From a virus: a DNA stretch of 58,634 nt. The notes under the pieces were generated by a model that was given only the letters and a program-made list of their open reading frames with translations, did not search any database and was not told where the DNA came from. This document shows positions 78-58,460 of the stretch, piece after piece. The position numbers and the translations under genes are program-made. Where the stretch lies: the IMG/VR virus record IMGVR_UViG_3300011244_000001. One strand, written 5' to 3'. Every line of letters starts with the position of its first letter. Positions within the stretch are counted from its first letter, which is position 1.

Positions 78-575
78 CACGACGGGCTTGTACCCACGAT
101 GCAGTTCGTATAGACGTCGCTTGTCATAGATGGGGCGGTAAGGGCATTTCTTAGCGAGGATGTACTTCCGTAGCGACCCAATCGCCCGCGCTGCTGCCGG
201 GTTCCAGGTTACTTTCGCCGCCCCCAACGCCCGCGCCTTTAGCTGTGATGTATTCCAGACGACAGCGAGGCCACAGAAAGCCCACAGAGCGGCAGGGGAA
301 GAAGCCCGCTCTATGTCCACCGTAGAGAACAGTTCTGCGACCATGATGCCGTTGAGGTACAGAACTCCTCGTGCTGCACGCATGAATGGATCGTGCGCGA
401 TTCGTTGATAGAGGATGGCCCGGTATCCCAGGCGCGTCTCGGTCAGCCGGGCCAGCAGAATCTCCATCGCAGCAGCGGCGTCGGGTTGGTTGTGGGCGCG
501 AAGGTTATTGATGCGGGCATGGAGCGACTTAGACAGGCGCGTGTAATACGAGTAGACGTAGACAACCTCGCGCAA
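1..575 (-). CDS. Hypothetical protein, N-terminal part of a junction-spanning gene that continues at 58557..58461. The C-terminal two thirds look like an IS110-type Transposase_20/HhH domain (tentative).
   Basis: Absent from the ORF track because it has no in-window stop. The minus frame is open from TTG 575 (first ATG 467) to base 1: ...MEILLARLTETRLGYRAILY...LNGIMVAELFSTVDIERASSPAALWAFCGLAVV...AHRRALRYAVKLWLKHAWIVMRLVH. Plus ORFs 160..408 and 393..599 are its antisense shadows. Confidence 0.6.
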   Translation of the reverse strand, partial: MREVVYVYSYYTRLSKSLHARINNLRAHNQPDAAAAMEILLARLTETRLGYRAILYQRIAHDPFMRAARGVLYLNGIMVAELFSTVDIERASSPAALWAFCGLAVVWNTSQLKARALGAAKVTWNPAAARAIGSLRKYILAKKCPYRPIYDKRRLYELHRGYKPVVAHRRALRYAVKLWLKHAWIVMRLVH

Positions 576-576
576 C

Positions 577-849
577 TCAGGGGTTATACTCTTCACTAGC
601 CGTCACCCTCAAAATAAATTCCATACGTTTATTGCCGTTAAGAATATATTCATCGTAGAGCGCCGGTTCATTGGTATAGCGCTCTTCTATCTGAATCAAT
701 ACGGGCCGTTTGTCGAACATGCCTCGCCTATCAAGTTCCTGCATCAGTCCTCTACCTACCTGCTCAAGAGCTTCGTAGCGTATATACTCGCGCTCCTCAT
801 CGTTGGCGCGAAGGCGAATGAGTTTAGATACACTGAATACTTTGTCCAT
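577..849 (-). CDS. Hypothetical protein (90 aa)
   Basis: ORF in the operon. Its start abuts the primase stop (851), and its stop at 577 abuts the next gene. Confidence 0.6.
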   Translation of the reverse strand: MDKVFSVSKLIRLRANDEEREYIRYEALEQVGRGLMQELDRRGMFDKRPVLIQIEERYTNEPALYDEYILNGNKRMEFILRVTASEEYNP

Positions 850-850
850 A

Positions 851-1783
851 CTATAACTCCCTTGTTGCCTGATTGATATACAGGTTGATGTCCCTGGCCG
901 TCCAGCCGGACAGGAATATCAGGTCGTCTATCTTGTCTGGTAGCTGCACGTACCGCGCCCGCTCCCCAAAGGCAGCGCCAATCCTCTGCGCCCGAACATG
1001 TCCAGAGCGGTCGGGCTGGAACGTGTCGGGATCGGTAGCCATATACACCCTCGGCCAGTTCAAGTCTGCTATCTCTGCGATCACTCTCGACTCAGGCGTG
1101 GCGTTTGGCAGGGAAAGGATGGCGAGGGGCATATTGGCTTCAAATAGTAGCTCTTGTGCGCTTACCATGCCCTTGATTGCTCCTTCTAGTAGTAAGAGAG
1201 GCTGGGCAGATGGGTCTACGTCAGGCATGGTCCAGAAGGCGGGGGTCATCACGTCGGGGGTCGCCGCGTAGCGCATCGGCGCATCGTCTGAGTCCATGCG
1301 GTACTGAATGGTACGCACGTCGCCGCTGTTATTTTTGTAGGGGATGGTTAGCGCGGGGTAGGGAACGTGAGGACAGCGATGCGTGTAGCCGAGGTTCCAG
1401 TAGTTTTGCGAGTCAGGCTTGACGCCGCGTGCCAGCCATTTGTCCTCCCGTAGTTGCGCGTCCCGGTCGTGCCAGCCCTGCCAGTATGCCTCCTCCTGTA
1501 GCCGCTTGACCAATGCACTTTCCCGCACCAATCTTTCTTCCTGCCGTTCTTGATTGCGCTGGATAGCAGCAGTAATCTCTTCGGGCGTCACCTTGTCGTC
1601 GAGCCAGCCCTGTCGGTTACAAACGCTGCACCAGTAGCGCGGGCGCTCGTTGTCCCAGATGATGAAGCGGTCAGTGCCGCCGCACCAGGGACAAGAGGAT
1701 GAGAAGGATTTTTGTCGTCGTGAGTGAACTTTTAGGTTGGGTAGAGAGCCGAATTTAGCGTGAACAGCGGGCGATAGATGCAT
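851..1783 (-). CDS. DNA primase (Zn-ribbon + TOPRIM)
   Basis: Zn-ribbon CPWCGGTDRFIIWDNERPRYWCSVCNRQGW. TOPRIM-like LLLLEGAIKG (E-G) and YMATDPD (DxD) motifs. Confidence 0.7.
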   Translation of the reverse strand: MHLSPAVHAKFGSLPNLKVHSRRQKSFSSSCPWCGGTDRFIIWDNERPRYWCSVCNRQGWLDDKVTPEEITAAIQRNQERQEERLVRESALVKRLQEEAYWQGWHDRDAQLREDKWLARGVKPDSQNYWNLGYTHRCPHVPYPALTIPYKNNSGDVRTIQYRMDSDDAPMRYAATPDVMTPAFWTMPDVDPSAQPLLLLEGAIKGMVSAQELLFEANMPLAILSLPNATPESRVIAEIADLNWPRVYMATDPDTFQPDRSGHVRAQRIGAAFGERARYVQLPDKIDDLIFLSGWTARDINLYINQATREL

Positions 1784-3123: not shown

Positions 3124-3438
3124 GTCATTTATTCCTTTGAGAACATTAAAGTGTTCTCATAAACTTGCAAAATGGTCCTTCACGATGGTATGCTTCTTGG
3201 TAGAAGCAGTAGGGTAGGCCCAAAACTCTTTCTAATTCCATTCATTTTCTTTGGGTAAGATGAATACACGAAGAAGAAGTTGCTATAACCCTAACAAGAA
3301 AGAACGGCAGGAAGAAAAGGGTACGGTATCCCTGGATACTGGCGATTAAACGAATCAAATAATCCCCCTGTCCCTATTTCCCTCCAATAGCACCATTTAT
3401 TTTCTTGCTTGCTACTCTAAATCGCACGTTCACAATCT

Positions 3439-4170: not shown

Positions 4171-7100
4171 TTAAACTGATACGATATTACCAGACGATCT
4201 CACTGTTCCGCGCCTACCAACCCCTCTAATGGTTCCCGAAAATACAGATACCGGCGTCGGTTCCAGGGTTGCTACTGCGCCCGCCTGACCGCTGCTTAGG
4301 CCAAAGAGCGGCAGGGAAATAGTGAACGAGTCTGCTGTGCTGCCTTGTCCTGCCGAGCTTCCCGTAAGCTGAACGAGATTGACGAGCGTGGCAGCGTTGC
4401 TTGATTGCGCTTGCACGCTGGCTACAAGTCCGTCTATGAGGACGAGGCTTGCAGCAATAGACGATTGTACTTCAACGTCAGCTACAAGCGCAACTGCTGT
4501 CGGGTTAAGGTCGCCAACTATCCCGCCCTGACCGTCCACCTGCCCTGCTAAGGCAAGCCCAACTGCTGTTGTTGCCGAGAAAGTGGAGAGGGCGTTGACG
4601 GTTGCCGCGAGATTGCGGTCTATACCAAGAGGAGCAGCCGTGCTGGACTGACCACTTGCTGTTGCAGACAGCGGCTTGGCGACGACCAAATCAGCGGCAA
4701 CGGATGATTGCGGGCTGACGGAAGCGGCCAATGTCCCTGTCACGACTGCCATGTTTGCGCTGGTACTGGCGACCCCTGCGCTGGACCCGACTAAAGTATG
4801 GGCCACCATCACGTTCGCCGCAATGGAAGCAACCCCGGTAGACGAACCGGCAAGCGGTAAGCGCAGGGTCATGGTCGCTGAATCTGACGACTGCGCGACG
4901 ATATTGGCCCCTAGCTGAATACCTGCCCCTGGCTCAACACAGTCATCGCCCTCCCATACGGCGAGCCATTCGTTAGCGTAGCGTTGGCCGAAGAGAAGCG
5001 TACCGGCTGTGTCGAAGTGCGCTGTGCTTGTTACCCACTCGGACAAATCAGCCGTTTCGACAAGGGCGACATGATGCCCGTTTGTCTCTACGTCGCGCAC
5101 GACGGCGTCTATAATCGGGAAGCCGGAACTCTCGGCATGAGTATGCGGGGCCATAAATACAACGGCCAGGTTAGAGTCGGCGGCATCGCTGCGGTGAGAG
5201 GTGATGAGGCGTTCTAGACGGGCCTCGTAAGCAGTCGCGTCTCCGCTTACGGGTGTATCAGCCTCGATCTGCGCCCACATGATGCCAGCTAGCTTCACGT
5301 CGTCAACGTCAGGAAGCGCCAGAGCTTTGCTGATCGCCAGGTTAATCAGTTCTTGGACATCATCGTACTCGGCTCCAACACAGGACAAGCTAGAACACCA
5401 ATTGGTGATAGACGCCCCTCCGAGACTCGCCTTAGCAAACAGAACCTTGCGCCCAGGTAAGGCAGTTCGCAGTACTTCGTACATGCCCAACTCGATCCCG
5501 AACCCATCCACGCTTTGGGAGCCGTCCGATGGTAGCGCGGCGTAGTCAGTACCCAGCCCCCCTTGCGGGTAGTAAATCTGTAACTCTCCCCCTGCCGTCT
5601 GCCAGTATCCGCTCAACTCGGACCAATCGCCCTGTGCGCCAGCGTTGGACTGACCGTTGATGATGAACAACAGCGCCGGGGGTTCTGGACAGGCAGATAG
5701 ATTCGCTCCGGCAATACTAGCTGCCGCATTAACTGTCCCGGCCAGCGGTAGGCGCTCAGTAAGAGGGGCTACAATTCCCGATTGTGCATTGACGGCAGCA
5801 ATAAGCGGGATAGCTGACCCAACAGCGGCGACAATACTTGACTGTGCGTTGATGGTCGAGGCCAGGGGAATCCCTAGCGCGAGAGAGGCACTGATAGACG
5901 ATGTAGTGCTGACTGCGCTGGCGAGCGACAGGGGAGAGGTTAGGGATGATGATTGGTCGCTGACCGCGTTGATGGTCGAGGCCAACGGTAGGCGTTGGGT
6001 AAGCGGGGCTACAATACTTGATTGTGCGTTTGCGGTAGCCTCGAACGAGATGTTGGTTATTAACCCGGCAGCGATGCCAGACTGTGCGCTAATGACAGCA
6101 TCTAAGGCTACTTGCCCTATTGTATCGAGCGAGGAGGAGCTTGTAGATGATTGCGCGTTGACAGAAGAGGCCAGTAGTAAGTCCAGCGCGAGAGAGGCAC
6201 TGATAGACGCTCCCCCGTTGGCGGAGGCAGCAAGCGGCAGGCCAGAGGTCAGGGATGACGATTGACTACTTGCCGCGTTGATGGTTGTAGCCAATTCTAG
6301 GAGTTTGGTAAGCGGGGCCACAATGCTCGACTGTGCATTTATGGCAGCCCCGAACGAGATATTGGTTGTTAGCTCAGCGGCAATGCTCGATTGTGCGTTG
6401 ACGGTCGAGGTAACAACGATGCTCGCCGTTGGCGATGCTGCTATAGATGACTGTGCGGTAATGGCTGTGGCTAGAGGACGGGCAATGGCCAGGACTGACG
6501 ATTGGCTGCTAACGGCGTTGATAGTAGCAGCGAGTTCAACGAGTGACGGGGCCTGTTTGACCTCAAGGGCCGTTGTCACCGTGCGCCCGTTTGTATCCGA
6601 TGTTGAGCTAACCGTGTAGGCGCTGGCCGTTGCCGCCACGATATAAACGTCAGTGTAGGCCAAGTCTCCGGCAGCCGAAGTGGTACCGGTAATTCCATCG
6701 GTTAGTTCGACGTTGCCGCTACCCGGCGTCCAGGCAGTATGCGTTTGGTATGTTTTAGCTACCGCACCCAAGATCAGGCTATTGGCAACGGTAGTTGTGA
6801 TAGCAACCGGGAGATTCGTGGTCGTCCCGGCGTCCTGCGCTGTCTCGTCGGCCCCATTTGGTGCGGTCTGGTGCGCTCCTGGCACGGTAATAACGGTTAT
6901 TTCGTCGGCCAGATTGACGGTTCCGTTATAGACAACATTGACGCCTTGCGTGCCTGGCGGGGGATTGATGAGGTAGTAGACATCAATCGAGAGCCAGTTA
7001 GTTCCTGAGTAGTTATACGAGATGCTGGCCCCGGTCAGCTTGGTTAAAGGTCTGCCCTTGATGGTGGCAGTAGAGACGAGGCGCTGGTTAAGGCTGTCCC

Positions 7101-7569: not shown

Positions 7570-8456
7570 TAGCTCACCATTTCAAAGAACCAGCGAGTAT
7601 CAAGCAGGGGCGGGAAGGCGTTGGAGTTTGCCCCTGCCGTCACGCTGGTCAGATTGGTTCCGTTGTCGAAGAGCGAGTTGTAGTTCTCGACAATCTCCCC
7701 TGTCGCTGTAGCCTGCATCCCCGTTGTGCAGTAGGACATAGTACAGTTATTGACGGTGATGGTCTGACCCCCGGCTAATGCCGTTGCCACACGCACGCCG
7801 CGTTCACTGTACTGAATCAGGCAGTTACGTATAGTGATGCCGCCTACCCGCGTTGAGGCTATGCCATCACCCCCACCAAAGATAAAGCAGTTCTCGACGA
7901 CATGAGCGGCAGTACTGACGGTCGCGCTATGGGTAAACAGAATACAGGTATTTGCTCCCTGCCGTTTGGTGAAATAGCAGTTGCGAATGACGTTTGTGGT
8001 ACCTGTCCCGCCTACGCTGATGTGTTGCGCCCCGGTCGCTGGGCCAAAGTAACAATTTTCGATAATCCAGTTACCGCAGGCGGTTATCAGCGTAATGCCT
8101 GCCCCGGTCGTCAGGTCAATAGTAAAGCCCTTAAATGTTCTGTAGTTTTTGGAGGTTGCGGTAATGGCATTGGCGCGTACTTCCGTTTGGTCGTTGTCGC
8201 TACCGGTAATCCTGACTGGCCCCCCTACGCCATCGGTATTCGTGCCGAGAAAATCACCAATGTAGGTAATGGGGTTCCCAGCCGATCCACTGACATCAAC
8301 GGTCAGCAACTCACGGTAGGTCCCTGGCCCGACATAAACGGTATCACCAGCGACAACGGGGGTATCCTCCACCCCATTCAAGGTGAGTTTCCTTAACGCC
8401 CATGTTAGGCCGCTATTGGCATCACTGCCGCCTATTCCAACATAGCGAGTAGCCAC
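7569..8456 (-). CDS. Right-handed beta-helix (pectate-lyase-fold) tail protein
   Basis: Periodic NCYF / RNCYF / ENCFI / RNCLI / NNCT turns. GTG start at 8456 preceded by GGAGG. Confidence 0.6.
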   Translation of the reverse strand: MATRYVGIGGSDANSGLTWALRKLTLNGVEDTPVVAGDTVYVGPGTYRELLTVDVSGSAGNPITYIGDFLGTNTDGVGGPVRITGSDNDQTEVRANAITATSKNYRTFKGFTIDLTTGAGITLITACGNWIIENCYFGPATGAQHISVGGTGTTNVIRNCYFTKRQGANTCILFTHSATVSTAAHVVENCFIFGGGDGIASTRVGGITIRNCLIQYSERGVRVATALAGGQTITVNNCTMSYCTTGMQATATGEIVENYNSLFDNGTNLTSVTAGANSNAFPPLLDTRWFFEMVS

Positions 8457-8465: not shown

Positions 8466-8651
8466 CTAGAAGAGCAGTTCGTCGCTCTCTTCTTCCCCTG
8501 CCGCTCTTTCTTCTCTGGGCGATTCCAATAGCCGTCGCAATTCAAATAATGCGCCGTCAATGCTGGCTAGTTGCCGCTCGGCGCTCTGGACAAGCTGAAT
8601 TTTAAGAGCCTCTAGCTCTTGTACACGAAGTTCAATCGCTTCTTTGTTCAT
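8466..8651 (-). CDS. Small coiled-coil protein (61 aa)
   Basis: The track ORF 8466..8744 overlaps the 1747-aa gene. ATG 8651 (MNKEAIELRVQELEALK) lies just after that gene's stop at 8656. Confidence 0.45.
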   Translation of the reverse strand: MNKEAIELRVQELEALKIQLVQSAERQLASIDGALFELRRLLESPREERAAGEEESDELLF

Positions 8652-17755: not shown

Positions 17756-18369
17756 CTATCTCCTGTATTTCTGTAGTTCATGGAAGCGCACGAGAAGTTC
17801 GGGGTTCTCGTTGGCCCAGGTATTCTTGTCTTTAGCATCGCGGTAGCCGTCAATTGCCGCCTCGACCAGCGCGGCCTCGCGGATACGCGCCATGTGGTAG
17901 GCGGGCCAATTGAACCAGCCCCCAGACCAGGGCCAGCCGTAGCGACGAGATCGCCAGAGCCAAACGAGTTGTGGGGGCGCTTTTGCCCCCTTCACTTTAT
18001 AGATGGCCGCTACTGCGGCTCTGTAAAATTTTCGTCAGGCTCATTCACTGTGGTAAAAAGCGCTGTAACTTTTTCGTACAGCGCCTTGAGCACGCCGGGG
18101 CGTAGACTTCGCATGTCAGAAGGCTTGAACTCGGTCGGTGCGACGACGAACCAATTAGCAGTCATCGCCGCCTCCACGACCGTGCGACGATAGACCACCA
18201 TCGGCTGTTCCCCTGCCGTCTGGCCCCCCAGTAGCTCGTCACTGGCAATGGCCCAGTCCTCGACCTGACCCTGCGTCATATCCAACGCATCAATCAGACC
18301 AAACTCATCTACCTTGATTAGCCGCAACTGGGCGGCAGTTAGCCCCTCTTTCTTAATCTCGTCGCTCAA
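17756..18369 (-). CDS. Tail assembly chaperone G-T fusion made by a -1 programmed frameshift
   Basis: ORF 17756..17995 is in the -1 frame relative to 18010..18369. The -1 frame is open from the slippery site at 18031 onward. Predicted fusion is about 204 aa. Confidence 0.6.
18010..18369 (-). CDS. Tail assembly chaperone (gpG-like)
   Basis: 119-aa acidic ORF between the tail tube gene and the TMP, the canonical position. Confidence 0.7.
   Translation of the reverse strand: MSDEIKKEGLTAAQLRLIKVDEFGLIDALDMTQGQVEDWAIASDELLGGQTAGEQPMVVYRRTVVEAAMTANWFVVAPTEFKPSDMRSLRPGVLKALYEKVTALFTTVNEPDENFTEPQ
18025..18031 (-). promoter_or_regulatory. -1 frameshift slippery heptamer A_AAT_TTT
   Basis: The minus strand reads gac gaA AAT TTT aca in the zero frame, 4 codons before the stop. 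This fits X_XXY_YYZ. Confidence 0.6.
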
Positions 18370-22923: not shown

Positions 22924-22940
22924 CCCTTTCTTCCCTGCCG

Positions 22941-39569: not shown

Positions 39570-39739
39570 TATTTCTTTCCCTGCCGCTCTGCGTGATTAA
39601 CGACCAGGTACACGAGTAGCGCGGCGTTCATCCATTGCGGAAATCTATTCATTACGTCGCTTGCTCCGTCAGAAGCTATTATGGCTAACACGAAGCTGCC
39701 TATAAGGGACATGGAAATGTAAATCGCTTTACTCTCCAT
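39569..39739 (-). CDS. Small membrane protein (56 aa)
   Basis: ATG 39739 (MESKAIYISMSLIGSFVLAIIA) overlaps the upstream stop. Confidence 0.45.
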   Translation of the reverse strand: MESKAIYISMSLIGSFVLAIIASDGASDVMNRFPQWMNAALLVYLVVNHAERQGKK

Positions 39740-43817: not shown

Positions 43818-43886
43818 GATGTTTCCCTGCCGTTCTTGGTGATTATGCTGGGCAATTGATGGGGAATTACCAACCAATAACCAGAC

Positions 43887-47911: not shown

Positions 47912-48394
47912 CTAGATGGCGTGGGAGTCGGGGAGAGGGTTACGCTTCATTATCTCCAGCGCGTCAGTGAAGTCGTCCAGGCTTAGGGCGCGTGCCAGAT
48001 GTTGGGAGGATTCCGAGCGCGGTAGGTCCACCATCTCTTCTTCCCCTGCCGCCTCTTCTGTGTCAGGCAGGACAAGTTTATCAGCAATGAGCAGCAACTC
48101 GGCCAGTGCGCGATTGAGGTTGGTTGCACGGATGCGAAGGGGGCGTTTGCCGAAGTAATCCTTGACGAGTATCTGACGTTTGCCGTCGTGATCTTTGTTG
48201 ATTACCACGTCGAATCGCTGGGTAAAGCGGTCGAGGGCTGCCAGCATTTGTAGCGGGAATAGCTGGTCGTTAGGGGTAGGTTCTGGTAGGAAACACCCAC
48301 AATTATGCTGGGTTAATCCAGGTACATTTTGGTATGATTTTGCGAGTAATTTGTCTGAGTATTCAGGGTCAATACCCGTTGATAATTGGTTCAT
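47912..48394 (-). CDS. Hypothetical protein (160 aa)
   Basis: First gene of the early block. Confidence 0.55.
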   Translation of the reverse strand: MNQLSTGIDPEYSDKLLAKSYQNVPGLTQHNCGCFLPEPTPNDQLFPLQMLAALDRFTQRFDVVINKDHDGKRQILVKDYFGKRPLRIRATNLNRALAELLLIADKLVLPDTEEAAGEEEMVDLPRSESSQHLARALSLDDFTDALEIMKRNPLPDSHAI

Positions 48395-48510
48395 AATTGG
48401 TACCTATTTTGGGGGAAGAACGGCAGGAAAAGAGGAGAGGGGGGTCAAAAGTCCGGGGGACCCGTTCCTTACGGGATTCTTCACCCCCCCCTTGAAAGTC
48501 GGGAGGAACC

Positions 48511-49824: not shown

Positions 49825-51407
49825 TAAGCCCCCTCACTTGCGTTATGCTCATCTATCCGCACGACAAGCCCCATCAATTGCGCCTTTAAGCTCTCTAGCT
49901 CATAAGTCACCCAGTCAGGAATCGGGGTGAAGGTAGGCGGGTCAACCGGGGGATCAACTGGCGGCTCTTCGGGTTCTGTACCATCGTAGTAGGACAGTGC
50001 GCCGAGGTCGGGCGGGTTGTTGCGGGCGTCGCCTATCATGTCATCCGTGCCGCCCTTTGCGTTTACCACGCCTGCGCCCACAGCCTTGCTTCCTGCTCTA
50101 AGGAAGTAGTTACTTAAATCAATGTCGCTGTCCAGTCCCTTCCAGTTAATCGGAGCAGCGGCGTTTGCCAGCCCTGGATCGCCGTTCACATCGTTACTTC
50201 CTTTGAACTTTGCGGCGGGAGCGACTGACCAGAGGTTATGCTGCACCTTCATTCCCTGCGGGTCGCCAACGGCTATCTCAGCGGCGGCTGGCGCGTTAGT
50301 CCAGTCCACGATGTTGTTCTCAAAGAAGCTGTTGACGTGCGGGTTGCCGCGCATGTTGTCGCCAATGTTGATTCCCTGGCGAGTCAATGGGCCAGCAACA
50401 AGGGTATTATAGCCAATGTAACAATCCTCTAATGTGGTATCGTAGCCTCCTGCCCATCCCCCGCTTCCGGCTTTACCCAGTCCATTTGCAACGTGTAGCA
50501 TCACGCCAAGATTGACGACCAGGTTATTGTAAATCTGGACGCGGGCCGTTTTAGGGAAGCTGGCGTTGTTGCGACAAACGCCCTGCTTGTCGCCTGCCAG
50601 GTTGCCGCACTCGTCACCAATGGCGATAGCCCCCGGCGCGTCCTTATCACCCTCAATGTCGGGGTAGCCAGGAGCGAACCAAACAATGTTGTTGCGAACA
50701 ATGACGTCGGTAGAGCGATTGACGTAGATGTGTTTGTGCGCGACCAAGAAAACCTCATTTTCCTCACACAGTACGCCGACATTTCCCTTACCTAGATTGA
50801 TGCCCTCGCCGTAGGACATACCACACACGTTACCGCGAACAACCGCGTTCTTTGTCCTGCCGATCTTAATCACGCCCCCGCCAGGGTCCTTGCCCCCTGT
50901 TGCGGAGTTGTCGAATGACTGCATACCAGAACGGGTGCAAACGTTGTCCTCGATAGTAAAGCCTTCGATCAGCTTATCTGGCGATATTTTAATGCCGCTG
51001 ACGTAGGTATGGTCAATCGTACAGTTAATGATAGTCCCGCCGTCACAGCCCGTGCCGTTGATACCGCACCCGCCGATGTTGCGAATGGTGCAGCCGTCAA
51101 TTATAATGCCGGGGGCGCGAAGCGAAATCATGCCTGCGTTTTTGTCGCCGGGGAGCGTGCCAGCAGGCCCTTTTCCCTTCTTAGTCTCATCATAGCCGCC
51201 ATCCAGGATCGTCTCGCCCACCCGCTGGCCGCGCCAAGTCGTGTTCTTGGCGGTAATTTTTAGCTCCTCGTGCCACACGCCAGGACCTATCAGCACGGTA
51301 TCGCCTTCTTTCACCAGCGCGACCGCTCGGCCCAGCGTCAGTACGGGCGAGCTTTCGCTGCCATTATTGCTGTCCTTTCCCTCTTTGCTTACATACAAAA
51401 TAGCCAT
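49824..51407 (-). CDS. Right-handed beta-helix (pectate-lyase superfamily) protein, depolymerase candidate
   Basis: Repeats DGCTIRNIGGCGI / INCTIDHT / EDNVCT / VRGNVCG / NNIV. ATG 51407 (MAILYVSKEG) follows AGAGGAAG. The C-terminus is Pro-rich followed by a coiled coil. Confidence 0.6.
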   Translation of the reverse strand: MAILYVSKEGKDSNNGSESSPVLTLGRAVALVKEGDTVLIGPGVWHEELKITAKNTTWRGQRVGETILDGGYDETKKGKGPAGTLPGDKNAGMISLRAPGIIIDGCTIRNIGGCGINGTGCDGGTIINCTIDHTYVSGIKISPDKLIEGFTIEDNVCTRSGMQSFDNSATGGKDPGGGVIKIGRTKNAVVRGNVCGMSYGEGINLGKGNVGVLCEENEVFLVAHKHIYVNRSTDVIVRNNIVWFAPGYPDIEGDKDAPGAIAIGDECGNLAGDKQGVCRNNASFPKTARVQIYNNLVVNLGVMLHVANGLGKAGSGGWAGGYDTTLEDCYIGYNTLVAGPLTRQGINIGDNMRGNPHVNSFFENNIVDWTNAPAAAEIAVGDPQGMKVQHNLWSVAPAAKFKGSNDVNGDPGLANAAAPINWKGLDSDIDLSNYFLRAGSKAVGAGVVNAKGGTDDMIGDARNNPPDLGALSYYDGTEPEEPPVDPPVDPPTFTPIPDWVTYELESLKAQLMGLVVRIDEHNASEGA

Positions 51408-51418: not shown

Positions 51419-54400
51419 TTATAGACAACTAATCTCATCGGGGACAAGTCTCGCTCGCCCCTGTGGGAAGTCTACCACGATACTGTGAGCGCCGCTAGAG
51501 AGGTCCCACCATTGCACGAGGCCCAGTCCCTCGGCATACCAGTACCGCTCAAAGGGGGAGGATCCATTAGCATTATGACTCACTTCTACCTCGAATATAT
51601 TCATTAGCCGTTTGGCAAGTAGCTGGCCGTTCCAGACACGTCGCAAGATGGCGTAAGTTGTGTCGTAGTACGAAGCCACCGTTTGAGCGCAATTATTTTT
51701 GCTGAAAATCCTGACCAGGGCGATGCGTTTGTAAACCTTGCCGATCTCCATATGGCTCGGTAGCCACTGGTGGGCGCGGCTGCCGGGGTTGTCCTGTAAG
51801 GTGTAGAACGTATACTCGCCGTGACTGGTATCCTCGTCACGGTAAATCCAGTTGCCCTCTACCCATATGCGTTCGTAGTTGCGATTCTTGACAATGCGTC
51901 GGTCTTTCGGCTGTAGCTGCACGTCCTCGGTTGCGCCCGCATGTTCACCGGCGTCGGTGCGAATAACCATCATCGGGCCGTCATCCCCGTTAGGCGTCGT
52001 GAACGCAATCCCTATAGGGTAAATAACCGGCGGGGTCGGTACATCAGGCAAGCGGGATAGCGACCAGCCATCAAGCCAAAAATTATTGCTAATCGCGTAG
52101 TTAGCGCGAATCTCCACCATAACGGTTAATGGTCCACCAGAATGAACAATCTCGTGTGCCGCTTCCACCTTCTTTCCTGCCGTCAATTTGGTCCAGGGCT
52201 GGCCGTTCGCCCTTACCTCTGCCGATCTGGGATCAACGTTATAGTCCTTACGTTTGTTGATGTCGTCCCACTTATACACATCTACCCATACCGGCGTCAG
52301 TAGCCGGTAACGCCCTGCTGCCATGCCCGGCAATGTCTGTGATAGTCGCGCCCATATTGACCGGCCTCCAGCAAAGGTCTTTAGTGCCTGCTGCCCATGC
52401 CAGATGAATATATCTCGCTCTGACGCGGGTAGATGTAGCTTGCCCTTGTGGACGAACTCGCCGCCCTGATAGTCATTCCAGGCGTCAGCGCTATACGGGT
52501 TATCCTCTCCTATAGCCCATTGTACCGTCCAGCCGTTCGGGTTCTGGTTACTTTGGTCAATGTCGGTCCACCCTTCATCAAATGACCCGTTCTTGAGCAG
52601 GTTTCCCGGTTGTGAAGGGGGGTCCTCTTTTGGCGGATCAAGAAATGGGTCGAGTGGGCGGACCTCGTAGTTGTAGCCCTTGATAATTTCCTTCTCGGCT
52701 GGCGAGAAACGCCCGTAGCCGTAGACGATTAGCTGACTGTCCTCACGCACGCCGTCGCTATCCATGATGTCCCGCATATCGTCAAAACTGTAGACTATGG
52801 TATGCCGACCTCCCCATGTGGCCTCGGCAATACGCCCGGCAACCTTCGGCGCGATGTTAGACGGCAGGAGAACAACAATGGCCTTGCGCCGGGTAGGTTG
52901 ATCGGCGCCAACCAGGTCAGCCAGGTCTTGTTCTGTGCCGTTAAAGCGGTTCATGTCCAAGCGCGAGCTTTGTACGCCCCACTCTGGTCCAGGCTCGGCG
53001 TTTGTGTATTGCCAGAACAGCCAGTTTGCCCAGGGCTTAGGAACGGCAGGGGAAGAAGCGACTGTCCACTGCGCCAGCCATAGCGGGTACTCTGCGCCCC
53101 AGGACGGGGACTTGAGCGTGCCGGTCCAATAGCTAGGGCTGGTATAGATAGCCGGTTCATGCGGATGGCCGATTCCCTTTAGCTTGTCGTGTAAGTAATC
53201 CATCGCCCTCATCACCCTGTCGGTGTAGTCGCCGGGGATATTGCTGCCTTCCTCCAGATCGACCGCCACGCCTAACGGCCCGCCGTACTTGACGATAAGA
53301 TTAAAGAAGAACTCCATCTGCTGAATGGGGTCTATGCTGGGGTAGTAGTAATGATACAGGCCATAGGGCAGACCTGCGGCACGAATGAGGGGTATGTAGC
53401 CCGCGATGCGCTGATCCTCGTGCAACCCCGTCAGGTAGCCGTAGGAGGCGCGAGCCATAACAAACTGTGCGCCCTCGACCTTCATTTTGTTGAAATCTAC
53501 ATTGCCCTGCCATTTGCTAATGTCTGGCCCAATGACTGTCATTTTTCCCTCCTGCCCCCCGTCTAGTACGCGAGGCGGTATCTCTGTTTGTTGGATGACT
53601 TGTGCCAGCACTGGAATGTACTGGCTGATATTCTGGTGAATGTCGCCCCAGCCCCGATCTAATGTCCACAGGGCGAGGCCCTTTACTTCGGGGTAGGCGT
53701 AGTGCGCGGCGTAGGTAGACAGCAGTTGACCCATGCCAACATCGGGCGCTGGTGCTCCCCGCTCTGCCCAGCCAAACTCAGTGAAGAACACGCTCACGCC
53801 CTTAATGCCGGGTATGGACTTCCATCTCCCAACGAGCCAGGGGGATTCAAGCGTGTCTGTTTCTAGGCTGTACTCATGCAGGCCGAGGGCCAGCTTGTCG
53901 GGGTGAGCGCGAAGCAGAGCCAGTAGCTCCTGCATCTTCGGCTTTGTCCAGGCATCAAGGTCGGGCGTGCCAGCGGACCAGTCCATCACGGTTATCTTCT
54001 TCCCTGCCGCCAGAGCTATACTACACAGGTAGATACTATACTCGGCTACCCACTCGCTGGCCTCCTTGCGTAGCTCGTTGTTGATCCCGTACCAGACCCA
54101 GGCGGGATCAAGTTCCGGTGATTCTTTCCACAAGTCATTGTGGGTCCGCCAATCCCATTCTGCTGCCAGGATAGGGGACGTATCGTAGTTAGGTACGTCA
54201 ATGAAGCGCGAACCGATGATACCAGTGCGCCGAAAGTGAATGAAGGTATCAGCAGGCGAGTAGCCCGCAGCTTTGGCGAGTTGCTGCACTTCCCAGCAAG
54301 GTCCAGCCGCGTCAATGCTCATCACGCCAACGGGACAGCGGGCGGCAATCAGCTTGTGATAGAAGTCGCCAATCCCATCCTGGTAGCTCTGTCCAGTTAC

Positions 54401-56557: not shown

Positions 56558-57287
56558 CTTGTAGCTCCCGTATAGCGTCGGCTAGTTCTAATGCCTCGGC
56601 CACTGACGGAGGGGGTGGCGGGCGACGGTTATTGTGGCCTTGTTGTTGCTGTCCTCGGTTGCCCTGCTGCTGCTGGGGCTTGGACTTCGACTTGTTGTTG
56701 TTATTCCCGTTGCCGTTACCGCGTTGCTGCTGTCCAAAGCCGCTCGATTCCTTTAGCGCCCCGGCCAATCCTTTTAGTCGCTTAGAGACGGTCGCCCCCG
56801 TCCCTTCCTTGTACTCCGTCCACAGGATAATCATGTGCGCTGCAACCAGGGCCATTAGTTCCTCGCCCCAGGTGATGCCGATGACGACGAGGTATCCGAG
56901 AGGATGGGCGAGGGTAGTAAAGCGTGCCGACGCACCGCCCTCCTCGCTTGACTTCACCCAGCCGGGGGAGTCCTCCATGTAGACAACGACGTTGGTATAG
57001 GCGTCCACGATATTGAGCGCCCACCCACCAACACGCAACCATTTAGCGAGGGGTCGCTGCCCTTTTCGCTCAGCATTGGCGGCGATAGAGAACATTACTT
57101 GCGGGCCAACCTGGAAGAGCCAGGCTAAGGCGCGGGCGGCGATACTGAGGGGACCCGTGATGACCTGGGTAAAAATGTAGGTCTGATCCAGTGACCAAAA
57201 ATATGATAGATAACCCAAGCCTAGTATGACAACGACATGGCCGATTATCCACAAGAGGATGGTGAACGGTGTGTATCGTGAACCCAT
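56547..57287 (-). CDS. Polytopic membrane protein with a Q/N-rich low-complexity tail
   Basis: Several TM spans, then GQQQRGNGNGNNNNKSKSKPQQQQGNRGQQQQGHNNRRPPPPP and a short C-terminal helix. Confidence 0.55.
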   Translation of the reverse strand: MGSRYTPFTILLWIIGHVVVILGLGYLSYFWSLDQTYIFTQVITGPLSIAARALAWLFQVGPQVMFSIAANAERKGQRPLAKWLRVGGWALNIVDAYTNVVVYMEDSPGWVKSSEEGGASARFTTLAHPLGYLVVIGITWGEELMALVAAHMIILWTEYKEGTGATVSKRLKGLAGALKESSGFGQQQRGNGNGNNNNKSKSKPQQQQGNRGQQQQGHNNRRPPPPPSVAEALELADAIRELQDEQ

Positions 57288-57290
57288 TAG

Positions 57291-58340
57291 TTATTCTCCT
57301 GTTCTGTTATCTTTAATGTAGTCTATGATTTCGTTGCTCAATTGGAACCACTCACCGTTGACGCGGTAAGCGTCGAACTGCTGGTGAAGCTCGGCCTCGC
57401 GGTCAAAGCTGCCAGATTCGGTGTGCAGTAGTTCGAGGGTTTCAGCGCTCCCGGTCTGTAAATCTTTCATGCGCCGGGGTATATCGTTGCTGACCCCTAT
57501 CTTCACGTACCCCCCCGACTTTACAAAGTAAACATCGTCACTCCCCCCCAGCGGTTGAGCGTCAGTGGTACTCGACTGAATGTAGCTACGCTGGATAGCT
57601 GGGGGAGTGGGGGAGGGGAAGGTGCGCCGCCCCAATTCGGTCCACTGATGCACCTGATCCTTGCGCGAGGATTCGAGTAGGTCTGTCTTAATCAGGAAAT
57701 CAATCATCGCCTTTGCCGGGTTAGATGCCCCTCGCTCTGCGAACCTACTTATCTCTGCTACCGCCAACCCTCGCTCGCTCACGACCGGCAACTTGCCTTC
57801 CGCCCTGGCCTTGCTTACGTCGCGCAATCGGTCGAACGTCACCCCGTCCGGTAATAGGAACATACTGTTTGATACGCGGAACATGTCGCCTACAACGTGG
57901 CGCTCGCTCCATTCGTCGTCCTCGGTAAAGTCAGTCTCTTCCCACACTAGCCCCGGCATCGTTATCGTCTCGCCGCTACTGGCCTGACGCGGGTAAGCGA
58001 TGGCTGATTCAGCACTCACGCCCACGATAGGGGCTTCTTTTTTTGCGGGGCGGGGCCAGGTGAGGTCGTTGAATATCAGGCCCACGAACACGCCAACGGC
58101 GTACACGATTCCCCAAGCGACCGTCCCCCACAGCCCACCCACGACGGCGGCGTTCCACAACTCCATTGTCGTCCACTCCGGCGCATATGCCAGTAGGTCG
58201 AGAGCTATGTTCACGGCGGCAACAGCAAGCCCCAGGCCATGCGCTAATTGAATTGCCTCATAGTGTGGGTGCTGGGTGTCGGCTGGCATAGAAACGAAGT
58301 CGTCTAGTTCTTCATCCATTGGGTAATTGTACCTTAACAA
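57291..58340 (-). CDS. Membrane-anchored protein with a C-terminal T5orf172 (GIY-YIG-like) domain
   Basis: Two N-terminal TM spans. The C-terminus VYFVKSGGYVKIGVSNDIPRRMKDLQTGSAETLELLH...EAELHQQFDAYRVNGEWFQL fits T5orf172. The track start is TTG 58340; an alternative ATG lies at 58319. Confidence 0.6.
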   Translation of the reverse strand: MLRYNYPMDEELDDFVSMPADTQHPHYEAIQLAHGLGLAVAAVNIALDLLAYAPEWTTMELWNAAVVGGLWGTVAWGIVYAVGVFVGLIFNDLTWPRPAKKEAPIVGVSAESAIAYPRQASSGETITMPGLVWEETDFTEDDEWSERHVVGDMFRVSNSMFLLPDGVTFDRLRDVSKARAEGKLPVVSERGLAVAEISRFAERGASNPAKAMIDFLIKTDLLESSRKDQVHQWTELGRRTFPSPTPPAIQRSYIQSSTTDAQPLGGSDDVYFVKSGGYVKIGVSNDIPRRMKDLQTGSAETLELLHTESGSFDREAELHQQFDAYRVNGEWFQLSNEIIDYIKDNRTGE

Positions 58341-58460
58341 AAATGGAGGAGTTTGTGTTCTCAGGTTTGGTTAATGAAGGGGAAGCTTGCCCGGCGAGAT
58401 AGGGTAAATGGAGTGGAATGGGTAACTGTTTTCTCTCCTGCCGGGCCTACCTATTCTACC

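What the first reader, a model, noticed from the sequence alone, without database searches (positions are those of the whole stretch)
290..58443. Iterated purine-rich motif RGAR-CGGCAGG-RRAAGAAG scattered about 45-60 times through the genome
By manual scan, the heptamer CGGCAGG or its complement CCTGCCG occurs roughly 58 times. My rough base-composition estimate for chance is about a dozen over both strands.

In about 46 cases the heptamer sits in the same extended context. The consensus is AGA(A/G)CGGCAGG(G)(G)AAGAAG, whose complement is CTTCTT(C)(C)CCTGCCG(T/C)TCT.

Copies with the CCTGCCG form on the + strand:
1533-1546, 5584-5597, 7631-7639, 7955-7964, 8489-8503, 9389-9398, 11455-11468, 11780-11792, 12684-12694, 18208-18218, 19991-20005, 22926-22940, 26310-26321, 29206-29218, 29451-29462, 29651-29660, 31604-31617, 33192-33202, 34928-34939, 36120-36128, 37644-37658, 39575-39586, 43822-43832, 48037-48051, 52169-52182, 53996-54009, 58431-58443.

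Copies with the CGGCAGG form on the + strand:
290-304, 3305-3320, 4309-4320, 11154-11162, 12429-12440, 14148-14156, 19727-19741, 25973-25987, 28546-28559, 28733-28749, 30576-30586, 33263-33277, 34069-34080, 37030-37043, 37604-37618, 45447-45460, 48421-48435, 52862-52873, 53044-53058.

This is not a protein motif, for four reasons:
- It is read in all three frames on the sense strand (AAGEE, RQEE/RQGK, GRE).
- It is read antisense (SSPAA, FLPLP, FPAD).
- It lies in unrelated genes (primase, fibre, tip protein, portal, TerL, GTs, lysin).
- It also occurs in intergenic DNA (3305, 48421, 58431).

About two thirds of the copies put CGGCAGG on the sense strand of the local gene. The motif is nearly absent from the 3.3-kb tape measure gene and from the AT-richer early block at 40-47.7 kb.

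I know of no described element with this sequence. Possible explanations:
- A host-genome signature word copied by the phage, analogous to HIP1, DUS/USS, Chi or KOPS. The motif contains GNAGGG-like and GAAGAAG-like words.
- An array of binding, modification or nicking sites for a phage protein.
- An RNA-level signal, given the CARGGA-like core.
Basis: seen in the sequence. Interest (0 to 1): 0.8.

Follow-up and report, generated by a model that had tools for sequence, protein, structure and literature searches.

The report
Iterated polypurine-flanked CGGCAGG word in a phage
An uncultured 58.6-kb phage carries about 40 copies of one 19-base, strand-asymmetric DNA word on both strands and mostly inside genes; no host genome or other phage searched shares it at this density, so it is probably a site read by the phage's own DNA machinery, function unproven.

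Summary
CGGCAGG occurs 62 times on the two strands, against about 11 in dinucleotide shuffles and 16-20 in codon-preserving shuffles. It is by far the most over-represented word of the genome. All 46 listed coordinates check out.

The excess lies entirely in about 40 copies of a 19-nt unit: a 5-nt purine-rich flank (AAGAA-like), the invariant CGGCAGG, then seven purines. These copies lie on both strands, in every reading frame, sense and antisense, with Poisson-like spacing. In TerL and portal they sit in gap-free alignment columns, so they arose by substitution, not insertion.

Relatives with 57-66% TerL identity lack the motif. One relative has 3-4 full copies in non-homologous DNA. No species-representative genome, metagenome contig or unrelated viral contig carries more than one exact copy. 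True Chi sites in phage P1 also lie on both strands but show no flank conservation.

Best reading (about 0.4): a strand-specific site for a phage-encoded DNA-acting factor, most likely for nicking or priming in replication or recombination. Main rival (about 0.2): a Chi-like signal of an unsampled host. RNA-level and protein-level readings are disfavoured. The function is inferred, not shown.

The parts
285..303 (+). motif copy cagagCGGCAGGggaagaa
   Evidence: exact core; 11/12 flank purines; outside firmly called genes
1533..1551 (-). motif copy aagaaCGGCAGGaagaaag
   Evidence: exact core; 12/12; sense, in primase gene
3300..3318 (+). motif copy aagaaCGGCAGGaagaaaa
   Evidence: exact core; 12/12; intergenic
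4304..4322 (+). motif copy aagagCGGCAGGgaaatag
   Evidence: exact core; 11/12; antisense
5584..5602 (-). motif copy gcagaCGGCAGGgggagag
   Evidence: exact core; 11/12; sense
6230..6248 (+). borderline copy gcaagCGGCAGGccagagg
   Evidence: exact core; 9/12 but C at +7,+8; may be a chance site
7951..7969 (-). motif copy ccaaaCGGCAGGgagcaaa
   Evidence: exact core; 9/12; sense
8490..8508 (-). motif copy aagagCGGCAGGggaagaa
   Evidence: exact core; 12/12; gene end or intergenic
11455..11473 (-). motif copy attcaCGGCAGGgggaaag
   Evidence: exact core; 9/12; sense
11779..11797 (-). motif copy aacgaCGGCAGGgggaaga
   Evidence: exact core; 11/12; sense
12424..12442 (+). motif copy gtcagCGGCAGGaagaatg
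   Evidence: exact core; 9/12; antisense
12681..12699 (-). motif copy aggcgCGGCAGGaaagata
   Evidence: exact core; 10/12; sense
18205..18223 (-). motif copy ccagaCGGCAGGggaacag
   Evidence: exact core; 9/12; sense
19722..19740 (+). motif copy aagaaCGGCAGGgaagaaa
   Evidence: exact core; 12/12; antisense
19992..20010 (-). motif copy cggagCGGCAGGggagaaa
   Evidence: exact core; 11/12; sense
22927..22945 (-). motif copy aataaCGGCAGGgaagaaa
   Evidence: exact core; 11/12; intergenic, directly upstream of the ATG at 22923
25968..25986 (+). motif copy tcggaCGGCAGGggaagaa
   Evidence: exact core; 10/12; antisense
28541..28559 (+). motif copy tagtaCGGCAGGagataaa
   Evidence: exact core; 9/12; intergenic, directly upstream of the ATG at 28565
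28728..28746 (+). motif copy aagaaCGGCAGGagaagaa
   Evidence: exact core; 12/12; sense in + strand gene 28565-28780
29205..29223 (-). motif copy tatatCGGCAGGgagagag
   Evidence: exact core; 9/12; sense in gene 29010-29780(-) as called on the identical contig L131
29449..29467 (-). motif copy agctaCGGCAGGgaaagat
   Evidence: exact core; 9/12; sense in gene 29010-29780(-)
29647..29665 (-). motif copy tggatCGGCAGGgaataaa
   Evidence: exact core; 9/12; sense in gene 29010-29780(-)
30571..30589 (+). motif copy aatgaCGGCAGGaaagcca
   Evidence: exact core; 9/12; antisense in portal gene, in gap-free alignment columns
31604..31622 (-). motif copy gtactCGGCAGGggaagag
   Evidence: exact core; 9/12; sense in TerL, encodes the conserved S-A-G-E, no indel
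32260..32278 (-). borderline copy gggggCGGCAGGccggagg
   Evidence: exact core; encodes the conserved TerL peptide FGGGRPE, so probably protein-driven rather than a true copy
33189..33207 (-). motif copy gagatCGGCAGGgggatag
   Evidence: exact core; 10/12; sense
33258..33276 (+). motif copy aggaaCGGCAGGaaagaag
   Evidence: exact core; 12/12; antisense
34064..34082 (+). motif copy aagagCGGCAGGggaaaac
   Evidence: exact core; 11/12; antisense
37025..37043 (+). motif copy aggagCGGCAGGggaagag
   Evidence: exact core; 12/12; antisense, in the 5' end of the Dam-like methyltransferase gene
37599..37617 (+). motif copy aagaaCGGCAGGggaagaa
   Evidence: exact core; 12/12; sense, at the 3' end of + strand gene 37240-37632; convergent pair with the copy at 37645-37663
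37645..37663 (-). motif copy ggagaCGGCAGGaagaaag
   Evidence: exact core; 12/12; intergenic; inverted partner 48 nt from the copy at 37599-37617
39573..39591 (-). motif copy cagagCGGCAGGgaaagaa
   Evidence: exact core; 11/12; outside firmly called genes
43819..43837 (-). motif copy aagaaCGGCAGGgaaacat
   Evidence: exact core; 10/12; the only strong copy in the AT-richer block 40-47.7 kb
48038..48056 (-). motif copy agaggCGGCAGGggaagaa
   Evidence: exact core; 12/12; sense
48416..48434 (+). motif copy aagaaCGGCAGGaaaagag
   Evidence: exact core; 12/12; intergenic, opposite in orientation to the flanking genes
50849..50867 (-). motif copy aagatCGGCAGGacaaaga
   Evidence: exact core; 10/12; sense
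52169..52187 (-). motif copy attgaCGGCAGGaaagaag
   Evidence: exact core; 10/12; sense in the GH25 lysin gene
52857..52875 (+). motif copy ttagaCGGCAGGagaacaa
   Evidence: exact core; 9/12; antisense
53039..53057 (+). motif copy aggaaCGGCAGGggaagaa
   Evidence: exact core; 12/12; antisense
53996..54014 (-). motif copy tctggCGGCAGGgaagaag
   Evidence: exact core; 9/12; sense
58430..58448 (-). motif copy aggccCGGCAGGagagaaa
   Evidence: exact core; 10/12; intergenic, about 97 nt upstream of the T5orf172-domain gene
57291..58340 (-). candidate trans-factor (inferred only): 349-aa protein with a C-terminal T5orf172/MUG113 domain, which I take to belong to the GIY-YIG nuclease superfamily, and an unassigned 250-aa N-terminal part
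   Evidence: Pfam PF13455 6e-12 and PF10544 1e-8; PHROG 'endonuclease' families; no PDB sequence relative. Lies in the replication module between helicase and primase. No link to the motif has been shown.
851..1783 (-). candidate trans-factor (inferred only): DNA primase with a weak match to the T7-type zinc ribbon
   Evidence: phrog_47 DNA primase 1.3e-10; PF08273 Zn_Ribbon_Prim 0.0018, below the curated cutoff. No link to the motif has been shown.
34923..35636 (-). accessory candidate (inferred only): Rnl2-like ligase, nucleotidyltransferase domain only
   Evidence: PF09414 RNA_ligase 4.9e-16; weak match to T4 RNA ligase 2, PDB 1s68

Best explanation
The motif is a 19-nt, strand-asymmetric cis-acting DNA site. 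It has a 5-nt purine-rich flank, the invariant core CGGCAGG and seven purines in a fixed register. It has been selected about 40 times, by point substitution, throughout this phage's own genome.

Its function appears to depend on the number and density of sites on both strands, not on position relative to genes. I infer that a phage-encoded factor reads it, and that this factor has no recognisable homologue. I infer further that the site marks a strand-specific DNA transaction in replication or recombination. That would be either a site-specific nick, as in T5-, tf- or phiKMV-type interrupted genomes, or a preferred start for a purine-rich primer laid on the pyrimidine strand.

Shown: the motif, its extent, its statistics, its independence from coding, and its absence from the host-like and other phage DNA searched. 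Inferred: that a phage protein reads it. More speculative (about 0.25): that the transaction is nicking or priming.
For: 1. The selected unit is the whole 19-mer, not the heptamer. There are 41 strong-flank copies against about 5.5 expected, and the 21 weak-flank copies match chance. The flanks carry 4.3 corrected bits in a fixed register. Copies outside genes match best.
2. The core is invariant and not palindromic, and no partner motif lies within 130 nt. This fits one asymmetric protein footprint.
3. Copies lie on both strands (17 +, 24 -), in all frames, sense and antisense. Spacing is Poisson-like (CV 0.95 against 0.96 at random) and the order of strands is random. This points to a density-type function on DNA rather than regulation, RNA or protein.
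4. Copies arose by substitution. The TerL and portal copies sit in gap-free, partly conserved alignment columns.
5. The motif is intrinsic to the phage lineage.
   - Relatives with 57-66% TerL identity show no enrichment.
   - In 875 kb of unrelated viral DNA, strong-flank copies occur at 0.019 per kb, against 0.70 per kb here.
   - No genome, metagenome or viral contig holds more than one exact long copy.
   - One relative, IMGVR_UViG_3300012533_000013, carries 3-4 full copies in DNA that otherwise shares no similarity with the window.
6. Plausible enzymes are encoded here: primase, DnaB/RecA-like helicase, a T5orf172-domain nuclease inside the replication module, ERF, SSB and an Rnl2-like ligase.
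7. There is precedent. The nick-associated 9-mer WACTRTGAC is enriched (13 copies against 0.7 expected) throughout coding sequences of Pseudomonas phages (PMC11780129).
8. From general knowledge: hybrids of purine-rich RNA with pyrimidine-rich DNA are unusually stable.
Against: - There is no direct evidence for nicks, primers or binding. No reads or kinetic data were available.
- Described nick motifs lie on one strand only, number 4-13 per genome and are conserved across related phages. Here the sites are on both strands, about 40 in number, and absent from most relatives.
- No DNA-binding or nuclease gene co-varies with the motif. The relative that has full copies shows no T5orf172 or primase homologue in the 23.6 kb compared by tblastn or in the ten ORFs scanned against Pfam. 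The genes shared only with that relative are a small orphan and a widespread small domain.
- Known primases need only about 3 nt of template recognition.
- Pfam and PHROGs find no repressor or HTH protein among the roughly 95 ORFs scanned in all, including the 45 smaller ones scanned together.
Confidence: 0.4

Rival explanations
1. A host-specified signal of the Chi type. The host's RecBCD- or AddAB-like helicase-nuclease, or another nuclease that tells self from non-self, recognises CGGCAGG in a favourable 3' context. The phage appears to be unmodified and packaged by headfuls, and has accumulated the signal on both strands. This would protect its DNA ends and feed recombination-dependent replication.
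For: - The statistical signature matches that of Chi-rich phages. There, Chi is the most frequent octamer, at 1 per 1.9 kb, inside genes, and is gained and lost among related phages (LLS, P1, MD8; PMC12315714).
- I checked P1 directly. The first 50 kb hold 27 Chi sites against 1.2 expected, 15 on + and 12 on -. A headful-packaging phage therefore carries Chi on both strands, as here.
- The core is a G-rich asymmetric 7-mer, a length typical of known Chi sequences (my own knowledge).
- The terminase is of the PBSX/Terminase_3 type, which I take to indicate headful packaging, and the assembly is circular.
- Strong palindrome avoidance suggests unmodified DNA exposed to host nucleases.
- The one relative with full copies also has a modest excess of the bare core, 35 against about 16.
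- From my own knowledge: E. coli Chi activity depends up to fivefold on the 4-7 nt to its 3' side.
Against: - P1 Chi sites carry no flank information (0.03 + 0.39 bits), against 0.96 + 3.33 bits here.
- Bare-core copies are not enriched in the window.
- No species genome among 185,579 shows repeated 19-mer hits, and no unrelated phage contig carries the motif at any density.
- The phage encodes its own ERF and SSB. In lambdoid phages, those with their own recombination modules mostly have few Chi sites.
- The core excess in the relative is no larger than that of several other CGGCA-containing words in that genome.
Confidence: 0.2
2. Dispersed operator or 'stoperator' sites. A phage DNA-binding regulator binds the asymmetric sites across the genome and silences or blocks transcription, as the immunity repressor of Cluster A mycobacteriophages does.
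For: - The sites are asymmetric, roughly the size of a monomer footprint and present in tens of copies. Their specificity differs between related phages, as stoperator consensus sequences differ between subclusters (PMC6550527; PMC9283540).
- Several of the best copies lie in intergenic DNA. Three flank the divergent and convergent junction at 37.0-37.7 kb.
Against: - Stoperators number 20-30 and are oriented with transcription. My recollection is that most lie in short intergenic gaps. Here most copies are deep inside genes, and at least 11 of 31 genic copies are antisense.
- No integrase and no recognisable repressor or HTH protein was found.
- Placement along the genome is random.
Confidence: 0.1
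3. Target of a sequence-specific DNA modification. The agent could be the phage Dam-like methyltransferase with its N-terminal extension, or a backbone or base modification. Sites would be kept because the modification serves packaging, ejection or defence evasion.
For: - The phage encodes a 299-aa Dam-family methyltransferase with an extra N-terminal region of about 100 aa.
- A strict asymmetric 7-bp core containing an adenine resembles Type IIG, Type III or BREX recognition sites (my own knowledge).
Against: - Modification motifs are not normally enriched, and they do not need 12 further purine positions.
- Homologues of the methyltransferase occur in relatives that lack the motif.
- Heavy avoidance of palindromes argues that the DNA is not broadly protected by modification.
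Confidence: 0.07
4. A by-product without function: a mutational or gene-conversion drive, or a remnant of a short repeated sequence that has spread and is not under selection.
For: - The AT-richer, probably recently acquired block at 40-47.7 kb has few copies (1 against 5.4 expected). That would fit slow accumulation.
- No trans-acting factor could be identified.
Against: - The core is invariant in all copies and near-miss cores are rare. Neutral copies would decay.
- The copies are not insertions.
- The motif is kept against codon preferences, as the synonymous shuffles lose it.
- It occurs in non-homologous DNA of a relative.
Confidence: 0.05
5. An RNA-level signal, such as a target for a small RNA, a translation enhancer or Shine-Dalgarno-like element, or a processing site.
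For: - Two copies lie directly upstream of start codons, at 22934 and 28546. Their purine tails could act as Shine-Dalgarno sequences.
- There is a mild excess of sense copies.
Against: - At least 11 strong copies are antisense, and several intergenic copies point against the flanking genes.
- The general ribosome-binding site of this genome is a canonical GGAG/AGGAG, not the motif.
- There is no Rfam match.
Confidence: 0.03

Closest known systems
Nick-associated motifs of phages with interrupted genomes: Pseudomonas phages tf and Rembedalsseter (WACTRTGAC / TACTRTGMC), phiKMV-like phages, T5 and BF23
   Same: A short asymmetric word, strongly enriched over chance (13 copies against 0.7 expected), scattered through coding sequences regardless of frame. 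It is specific to a phage lineage and its function is still unknown (PMC11780129, PMC3517423).
   Different: Those motifs lie on one strand only, number 4-13 per genome and are conserved across about 60 related phages. Here there are about 40 copies on both strands, the unit is 19 nt with polypurine flanks, and most relatives lack it. Physical nicks have not been shown here.
Stoperators of Cluster A mycobacteriophages (L5, Bxb1), bound by a monomeric immunity repressor
   Same: Asymmetric sites in 20-30 copies across the genome. The specificity diverges between related phages together with the protein that reads the sites (PMC6550527, PMC9283540).
   Different: Stoperators are oriented with transcription and belong to temperate phages with an identifiable repressor. 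By my recollection they lie mostly between genes. Here the sites are mostly inside genes, in both orientations, and no repressor or integrase was found.
Chi accumulation in phages that depend on host RecBCD (P1, LLS, Pseudomonas phage MD8)
   Same: The single most over-represented word of the genome, about 1 per 1-2 kb, inside genes, gained by substitution and patchy among relatives. In the headful-packaging phage P1 it lies on both strands, 15 and 12 in 50 kb (PMC12315714).
   Different: Chi is the host's 8-mer and has no flank conservation in P1. It is abundant in the host chromosome. Here the selected unit is 19 nt, bare cores are not enriched, and no genome searched carries the word repeatedly.
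DNA uptake sequences (Neisseria DUS, Pasteurellaceae USS)
   Same: A strict core with weaker flanks, about 1 per kb, in both orientations and inside genes, sometimes as inverted pairs at gene ends. The pair at 37604 and 37652 looks like this. This comparison rests on my own knowledge.
   Different: DUS and USS are properties of the host genome, with thousands of copies. No genome with repeated copies of this word was found, and the sequences differ.
The 21-nt intergenic repeats of T1-like phages (TLS)
   Same: A phage-specific word of about 20 nt of unknown function, in about 20 copies (PMC11447400).
   Different: Those repeats are intergenic, co-oriented with transcription and about 76 nt upstream of start codons, so they look like promoter or enhancer elements. 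Here the sites show no relation to gene starts.

Membership tests
Nick-associated phage motifs (T5, tf, phiKMV type) | Physical single-strand interruptions at the motif in virion DNA | not testable with these tools
   Only assembled sequence is available. It would need native ONT coverage or end-mapping.
Nick-associated phage motifs (T5, tf, phiKMV type) | All or nearly all copies on one strand | tested here: not met
   17 strong copies on + and 24 on -, with the order of strands random.
Nick-associated phage motifs (T5, tf, phiKMV type) | Asymmetric word enriched over chance and found throughout coding sequences | tested here: met
   62 against 11-20 expected, in all frames.
Nick-associated phage motifs (T5, tf, phiKMV type) | Motif conserved across the related phage group | tested here: not met
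   Seven or more relatives with 57-66% TerL identity show no enrichment. One relative has 3-4 full copies.
Stoperators (Cluster A mycobacteriophages) | [quoted passage not shown] | tested here: not met
   17-20 sense against 11 antisense among genic copies, which is not significant. Intergenic copies occur in both orientations.
Stoperators (Cluster A mycobacteriophages) | A cognate immunity repressor and a temperate life style (integrase or parABS) | tested here: not met
   No integrase, ParA/B, HTH or repressor family was found by Pfam or PHROGs in any ORF scanned. A novel fold cannot be excluded.
Stoperators (Cluster A mycobacteriophages) | Asymmetric site of operator size in tens of copies across the genome | tested here: met
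   A 19-nt asymmetric unit in about 40 copies.
Chi-type host recombination signal enriched in a phage | The same word over-represented, and polar, in the host chromosome | tested here: inconclusive
   The host is unknown. The 19-mer is not iterated in any of 185,579 species genomes. The bare heptamer could not be scanned, because the tool needs at least 14 specified bases.
Chi-type host recombination signal enriched in a phage | The short core alone (5-8 nt) is the selected unit | tested here: not met
   Only copies with the polypurine flanks are in excess. P1 Chi sites have no flank information.
Chi-type host recombination signal enriched in a phage | Top-ranked word of the phage genome, about 1 per 1-2 kb, inside genes | tested here: met
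   For comparison, P1 has 27 Chi in 50 kb.
Host uptake or signature words (DUS, USS, HIP1, KOPS) | Thousands of copies in a bacterial genome; strand polarity for KOPS | tested here: not met
   12 single chance-level hits in 12 taxa. The known words are absent or at background in the window. There is no polarity.
Miniature mobile insertion (MITE- or RPE-like, in-frame) | Copies appear as insertions relative to homologous genes | tested here: not met
   The TerL and portal copies lie in gap-free columns.
Protein or codon-driven repeat | One frame and one strand; disappears as an excess under codon-preserving shuffles | tested here: not met
   Copies occur in all three frames, both orientations and intergenic DNA. 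Shuffles give 16-20 against 62 observed.

The most novel reading that the evidence does not exclude
This phage lineage has evolved a previously undescribed self-addressing system. A factor with no detectable homologue reads a 19-nt word with polypurine flanks at about 40 places on both strands. It uses these sites to open or prime the genome at many points for recombination-dependent or multi-fork replication, or to mark the genome as self against a nuclease. That would be a two-stranded, high-density relative of the unexplained nicked-genome phenomenon.
Probability: 0.3. Interest if true: 0.8.

Novelty: new variant of a known kind. Interest (0 to 1): 0.6.

Why it matters
Genome-wide iterated words in phages are rare. 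The known examples are Chi in P1 and LLS, stoperators, and nick motifs. Each has revealed how a phage handles its DNA, whether through dependence on host recombination, whole-genome silencing, or interrupted genomes whose function is still unknown.

This case is unusually clean statistically. About 40 copies of a word of roughly 18-19 bits lie in 58.6 kb, where far less than one is expected. It combines features not seen together before:
- polypurine flanks in a fixed register
- both strands
- mostly inside genes
- absent from close relatives and from all genomes searched

If the sites are nicks or primer starts, they would offer a tractable handle on why some phages interrupt or pre-prime their genomes. 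If they are a host signal, the word would define the Chi-like sequence of an uncultured host and provide a marker linking phage to host.

Tried and rejected
- Host signature. One scan each of genome contigs and metagenome contigs with AGARCGGCAGGGGAAGAAG, and one of viral contigs with GAACGGCAGGRRAAGAA, gave only single hits at chance level. None was related to the window except one relative.
- An Agrobacterium lead. One 8-kb Agrobacterium locus had 13 cores against about 3 expected. However, 50 kb of the A. fabrum plasmid pAt has 12 against 11.5. I dropped this as a local oddity.
- A family-wide system with variable specificity. Relatives have top-word z-scores of only 6-8 and no flank conservation. 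Rejected.
- Core sharing with relative 3300012533_000013. It has 35 cores in 33.5 kb, but several other CGGCA-containing words are equally enriched there, and CTGGCGG and GCTGGCGG are biased to the sense strand. Only its 3-4 full copies count as shared.
- Gene-motif association. The genes shared only with that relative are a small orphan with two homologues and a widespread 70-aa domain with 822 hits. No T5orf172 or primase homologue turned up in the 23.6 kb of the relative compared by tblastn, nor in the ten ORFs scanned against Pfam.
- Insertion or mobile mini-element. Rejected from the alignments.
- Ribosome-binding site. The genome uses a canonical Shine-Dalgarno sequence, and only two copies precede start codons.
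- A second half-site or partner motif within 130 nt. None found.
- Regular spacing or strand switching. Spacing is Poisson-like and the order of strands is random.
- tRNA and Rfam searches. Nothing found.
- Host clues from the lysin, and PADLOC or PDB searches of candidate proteins. Uninformative.
- Near-identical strain for site turnover. The only other contig found (Logan ERR4837124) is 100% identical over 20.9 kb.
- Literature search for the sequence itself. It returned only primers.

Full report
**What the window is.** The 58,634-base window has a 77-bp direct repeat at its two ends, so it is a circular assembly of a complete genome of about 58,557 bp. The same sequence, 100% identical over 20.9 kb, occurs in an independent Logan assembly, ERR4837124.

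It is a tailed phage with no close sequenced relative. There is no nucleotide match among 50,697 phage records. The portal protein is only about 25% identical to those of actinophages.

Nearly all genes are on the - strand. Recognisable genes are:
- primase, 851-1783
- putative tape-measure gene (1,112 aa, no family hit), 14414-17752
- major capsid protein, 23466-24377
- ERF, 26232-26921
- SSB, 26942-27343
- portal, 29749-31167
- PBSX-type large terminase, 31208-32575
- Rnl2-like ligase domain, 34923-35636
- Dam-family methyltransferase, 36185-37084
- pentapeptide-repeat protein, 45729-46202
- GH25 lysin, 51419-54424
- DnaB/RecA-like helicase, 54926-56038
- T5orf172/MUG113-domain protein, 57291-58340

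No integrase, DNA polymerase, tRNA, Rfam family or recognisable repressor was found.

CGGCAGG or its complement occurs 62 times, 28 on + and 34 on -.
- Dinucleotide shuffles give 11.3 +/- 3.5, maximum 22.
- Shuffling synonymous codons within genes gives 19.6 +/- 3.4.
- Shuffling whole codons gives 16.3 +/- 3.3.

The word and its extensions head every list of over-represented 6- to 12-mers. Its z-score is 15.5, or 19.6 for ACGGCAGG. The best word in each related phage reaches only 6-8.

**Anatomy of the motif.** Aligning all 62 sites shows information only at -5 to -1 (A/G-rich, AAGAA-like) and at +7 to +13 (purines, almost no T). Nothing lies further out. After small-sample correction the flanks carry 0.96 and 3.33 bits.

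The number of G after CGGCA varies from 2 to 5. Even so, the purine tract ends at a fixed distance from the core. The fixed register holds more information than a register set at the end of the G run, 3.58 against 2.40 bits. The unit is therefore a 19-nt footprint, R5-CGGCAGG-R7, not two boxes with a variable spacer.

The core is strict. One-mismatch cores in a purine context occur 0-2 times each.

41 sites have at least 9 of 12 flank purines, where about 5.5 are expected. The other 21 are about what chance and coding give. Two of the 41, at 6235 and 32267, look driven by chance or by protein sequence. A quarter of all purine runs of 10 nt or more in the genome belong to the motif.

**Where the copies lie.** They occur in all three frames, sense and antisense, and outside genes.
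- With my stricter gene calls, the strong copies split into 17 sense, 11 antisense and 13 outside called genes.
- Three of those 13 fall in a gene called on the identical contig, which gives about 20 sense.
- The lean towards sense is not significant. Purine-rich coding strands would produce it passively.
- The best-matching copies (12 of 12 purines) include several in intergenic DNA.
- Spacing cannot be told from random (CV 0.95 against 0.96; largest gap 5.5 kb, P = 0.6). The order of strands is random, with 20 runs against 20.9 expected.
- The AT-richer block at 40-47.7 kb has one strong copy against 5.4 expected.
- No second motif accompanies the sites within 130 nt.
- Two copies lie directly before start codons, but the genome's general ribosome-binding site is a canonical GGAG/AGGAG.

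**How the copies arose.** The TerL copy at 31611 encodes S-A-G-E-E in a gap-free, partly conserved column. The portal copy at 30576 is antisense and also lies in a stretch without motif-specific indels. The copies therefore arose by substitution, not by insertion of a mobile sequence.

**Relatives.** Phages with 57-66% TerL identity show no excess of the heptamer, either against dinucleotide expectation or against synonymous shuffles. These are L092, L096, L097, L099, 30 kb of IMGVR_UViG_3300048839_001052, L088 and L090.

One relative is different: IMGVR_UViG_3300012533_000013, with TerL 58% and portal 47% identical. I read 33.5 kb of its 49 kb.
- It has 3-4 full copies, for example agaaCGGCAGGggaagaaaag.
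- These lie in DNA whose only similarity to the window is the motif itself.
- It also has 35 bare cores. Other CGGCA-containing words are equally enriched there, so I count only the full copies as shared.
- No gene tracks the motif convincingly.

**Searches beyond the family.**
- The 19-mer AGARCGGCAGGGGAAGAAG matches three window copies. It gave 12 single hits in 12 unrelated taxa among 185,579 species genomes, about the chance number by my own estimate.
- In metagenome contigs it gave 17 single hits, none related to the window.
- A 17-mer version gave 84 single hits in IMG/VR. Only one was in a relative.
- In 875 kb of 65 unrelated viral loci, strong-flank copies occur at 0.019 per kb, against 0.70 per kb in the window.
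- Known signature words are absent or at background.

**Interpretation.** The data exclude a protein or codon origin and an insertion origin. They make an RNA-level role unlikely. They also speak against positional gene regulation. What remains is a DNA-level, strand-asymmetric site whose value lies in its density.

Two classes of reader are possible. The first is a host enzyme, as for Chi. Chi-rich phages share many of these statistics (PMC12315714). My own count in P1 shows 27 Chi in 50 kb, 15 on + and 12 on -. Occurrence on both strands is therefore what a headful-packaging phage would show.

Three results count against this. P1's Chi sites carry no flank information, while this motif's excess lies wholly in the 19-nt form. 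No genome or unrelated phage carries the word repeatedly. This phage also has its own ERF and SSB.

I therefore favour the second class, a phage-encoded reader (0.4), and keep the Chi-like reading as the main rival (0.2).

Within the favoured class I think nicking or priming most likely. The reasons are:
- the strand-specific polypurine requirement
- a spacing of kilobase order on each strand
- the replication and recombination genes present
- the precedent of nick-associated motifs enriched in coding DNA (PMC11780129)

This last step is inference. The known nick motifs differ in being on one strand, fewer in number and conserved among relatives. A stoperator-like role (PMC6550527) fits the asymmetry and the copy number. 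It does not fit the intragenic, two-orientation placement or the lack of a repressor and integrase.

**Verdict.** This is a real, highly significant, sequence-novel iterated motif. Its closest analogues are nick motifs, stoperators and Chi-rich phages, and it fails at least one defining test of each. I class it as a new variant of a known kind. The function is unproven, and decisive tests need reads, the host or proteins.

Noticed in passing
window, whole genome: Strong avoidance of GC-rich 6-bp palindromes: GCGCGC 1 (27.5 expected), GCCGGC 1 (27.4), GGCGCC 5 (33), TGGCCA 4 (30.5), and none at all of CGCGCG, CCGCGG, TGCGCA, CGGCCG or CTGCAG. GATC, CGCG, GGCC and TCGA are also low. This suggests heavy pressure from Type II restriction enzymes and unmodified DNA.
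   Followed up: partly
window 1-77 and 58558-58634: A 77-bp exact terminal direct repeat. The contig is a circular assembly of a complete genome of about 58,557 bp. The same genome is 100% identical in Logan ERR4837124.
   Followed up: yes
window 37595-37665: Two motif copies in convergent orientation, 48 nt apart, at the end of the + strand gene 37240-37632. They form an imperfect inverted repeat of about 30 nt that could act as a bidirectional terminator. A similar convergent pair lies at 4309 and 4349.
   Followed up: no
window 37085-37240: A divergent intergenic region with a sigma-70-like promoter, TTGCAC-N17-TATAAT, at about 37093-37121. It separates the leftward early operon from a single + strand gene. 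The host therefore uses canonical promoters and Shine-Dalgarno sequences.
   Followed up: no
window 40000-47700: A block with lower GC (44-50% against 54-58%) made of small ORFs. It holds only one strong motif copy and includes a pentapeptide-repeat protein at 45729-46202, which may be a DNA mimic. The block was probably acquired recently.
   Followed up: partly
IMGVR_UViG_3300012533_000013 (L089, L132, L134; contig 1-33468): The relative is rich in several CGGCA-containing words: CGGCAAG 35, CGGCAGG 35, CGGCAAGG 19. It is also rich in CTGGCGG (5 on +, 30 on -) and GCTGGCGG (3 on +, 14 on -). The last is one base from E. coli Chi and is strongly strand-biased. It could be codon-driven or a Chi-like signal of that phage's host.
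   Followed up: partly
L104 (Agrobacterium sp. NPDC058088, NZ_JBHVSU010000012.1, 8 kb): A local cluster of 13 CGGCAGG against about 3 expected, in several frames and both orientations, without purine flanks. It is not a general property of Agrobacterium, since pAt of strain C58 has 12 against 11.5 in 50 kb. Unexplained.
   Followed up: partly
window 4171-7569, 7569-8456, 18786-20963, 48511-51428: Tail or host-surface module: a SASA-type carbohydrate esterase domain, two beta-helix proteins, a DUF1996 protein, and a 725-aa protein with weak matches to glycosyltransferase family 2 that fall below the Pfam cutoff.
   Followed up: no
L092 (ENA ERZ15232935 contig, a relative): This relative carries an IS605-type Y1 transposase with an OrfB/TnpB (Cas12f-like) pair inserted upstream of its terminase genes. 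It also has a repeated CTTTACATAA word, 6-7 copies, that looks like a promoter element.
   Followed up: no
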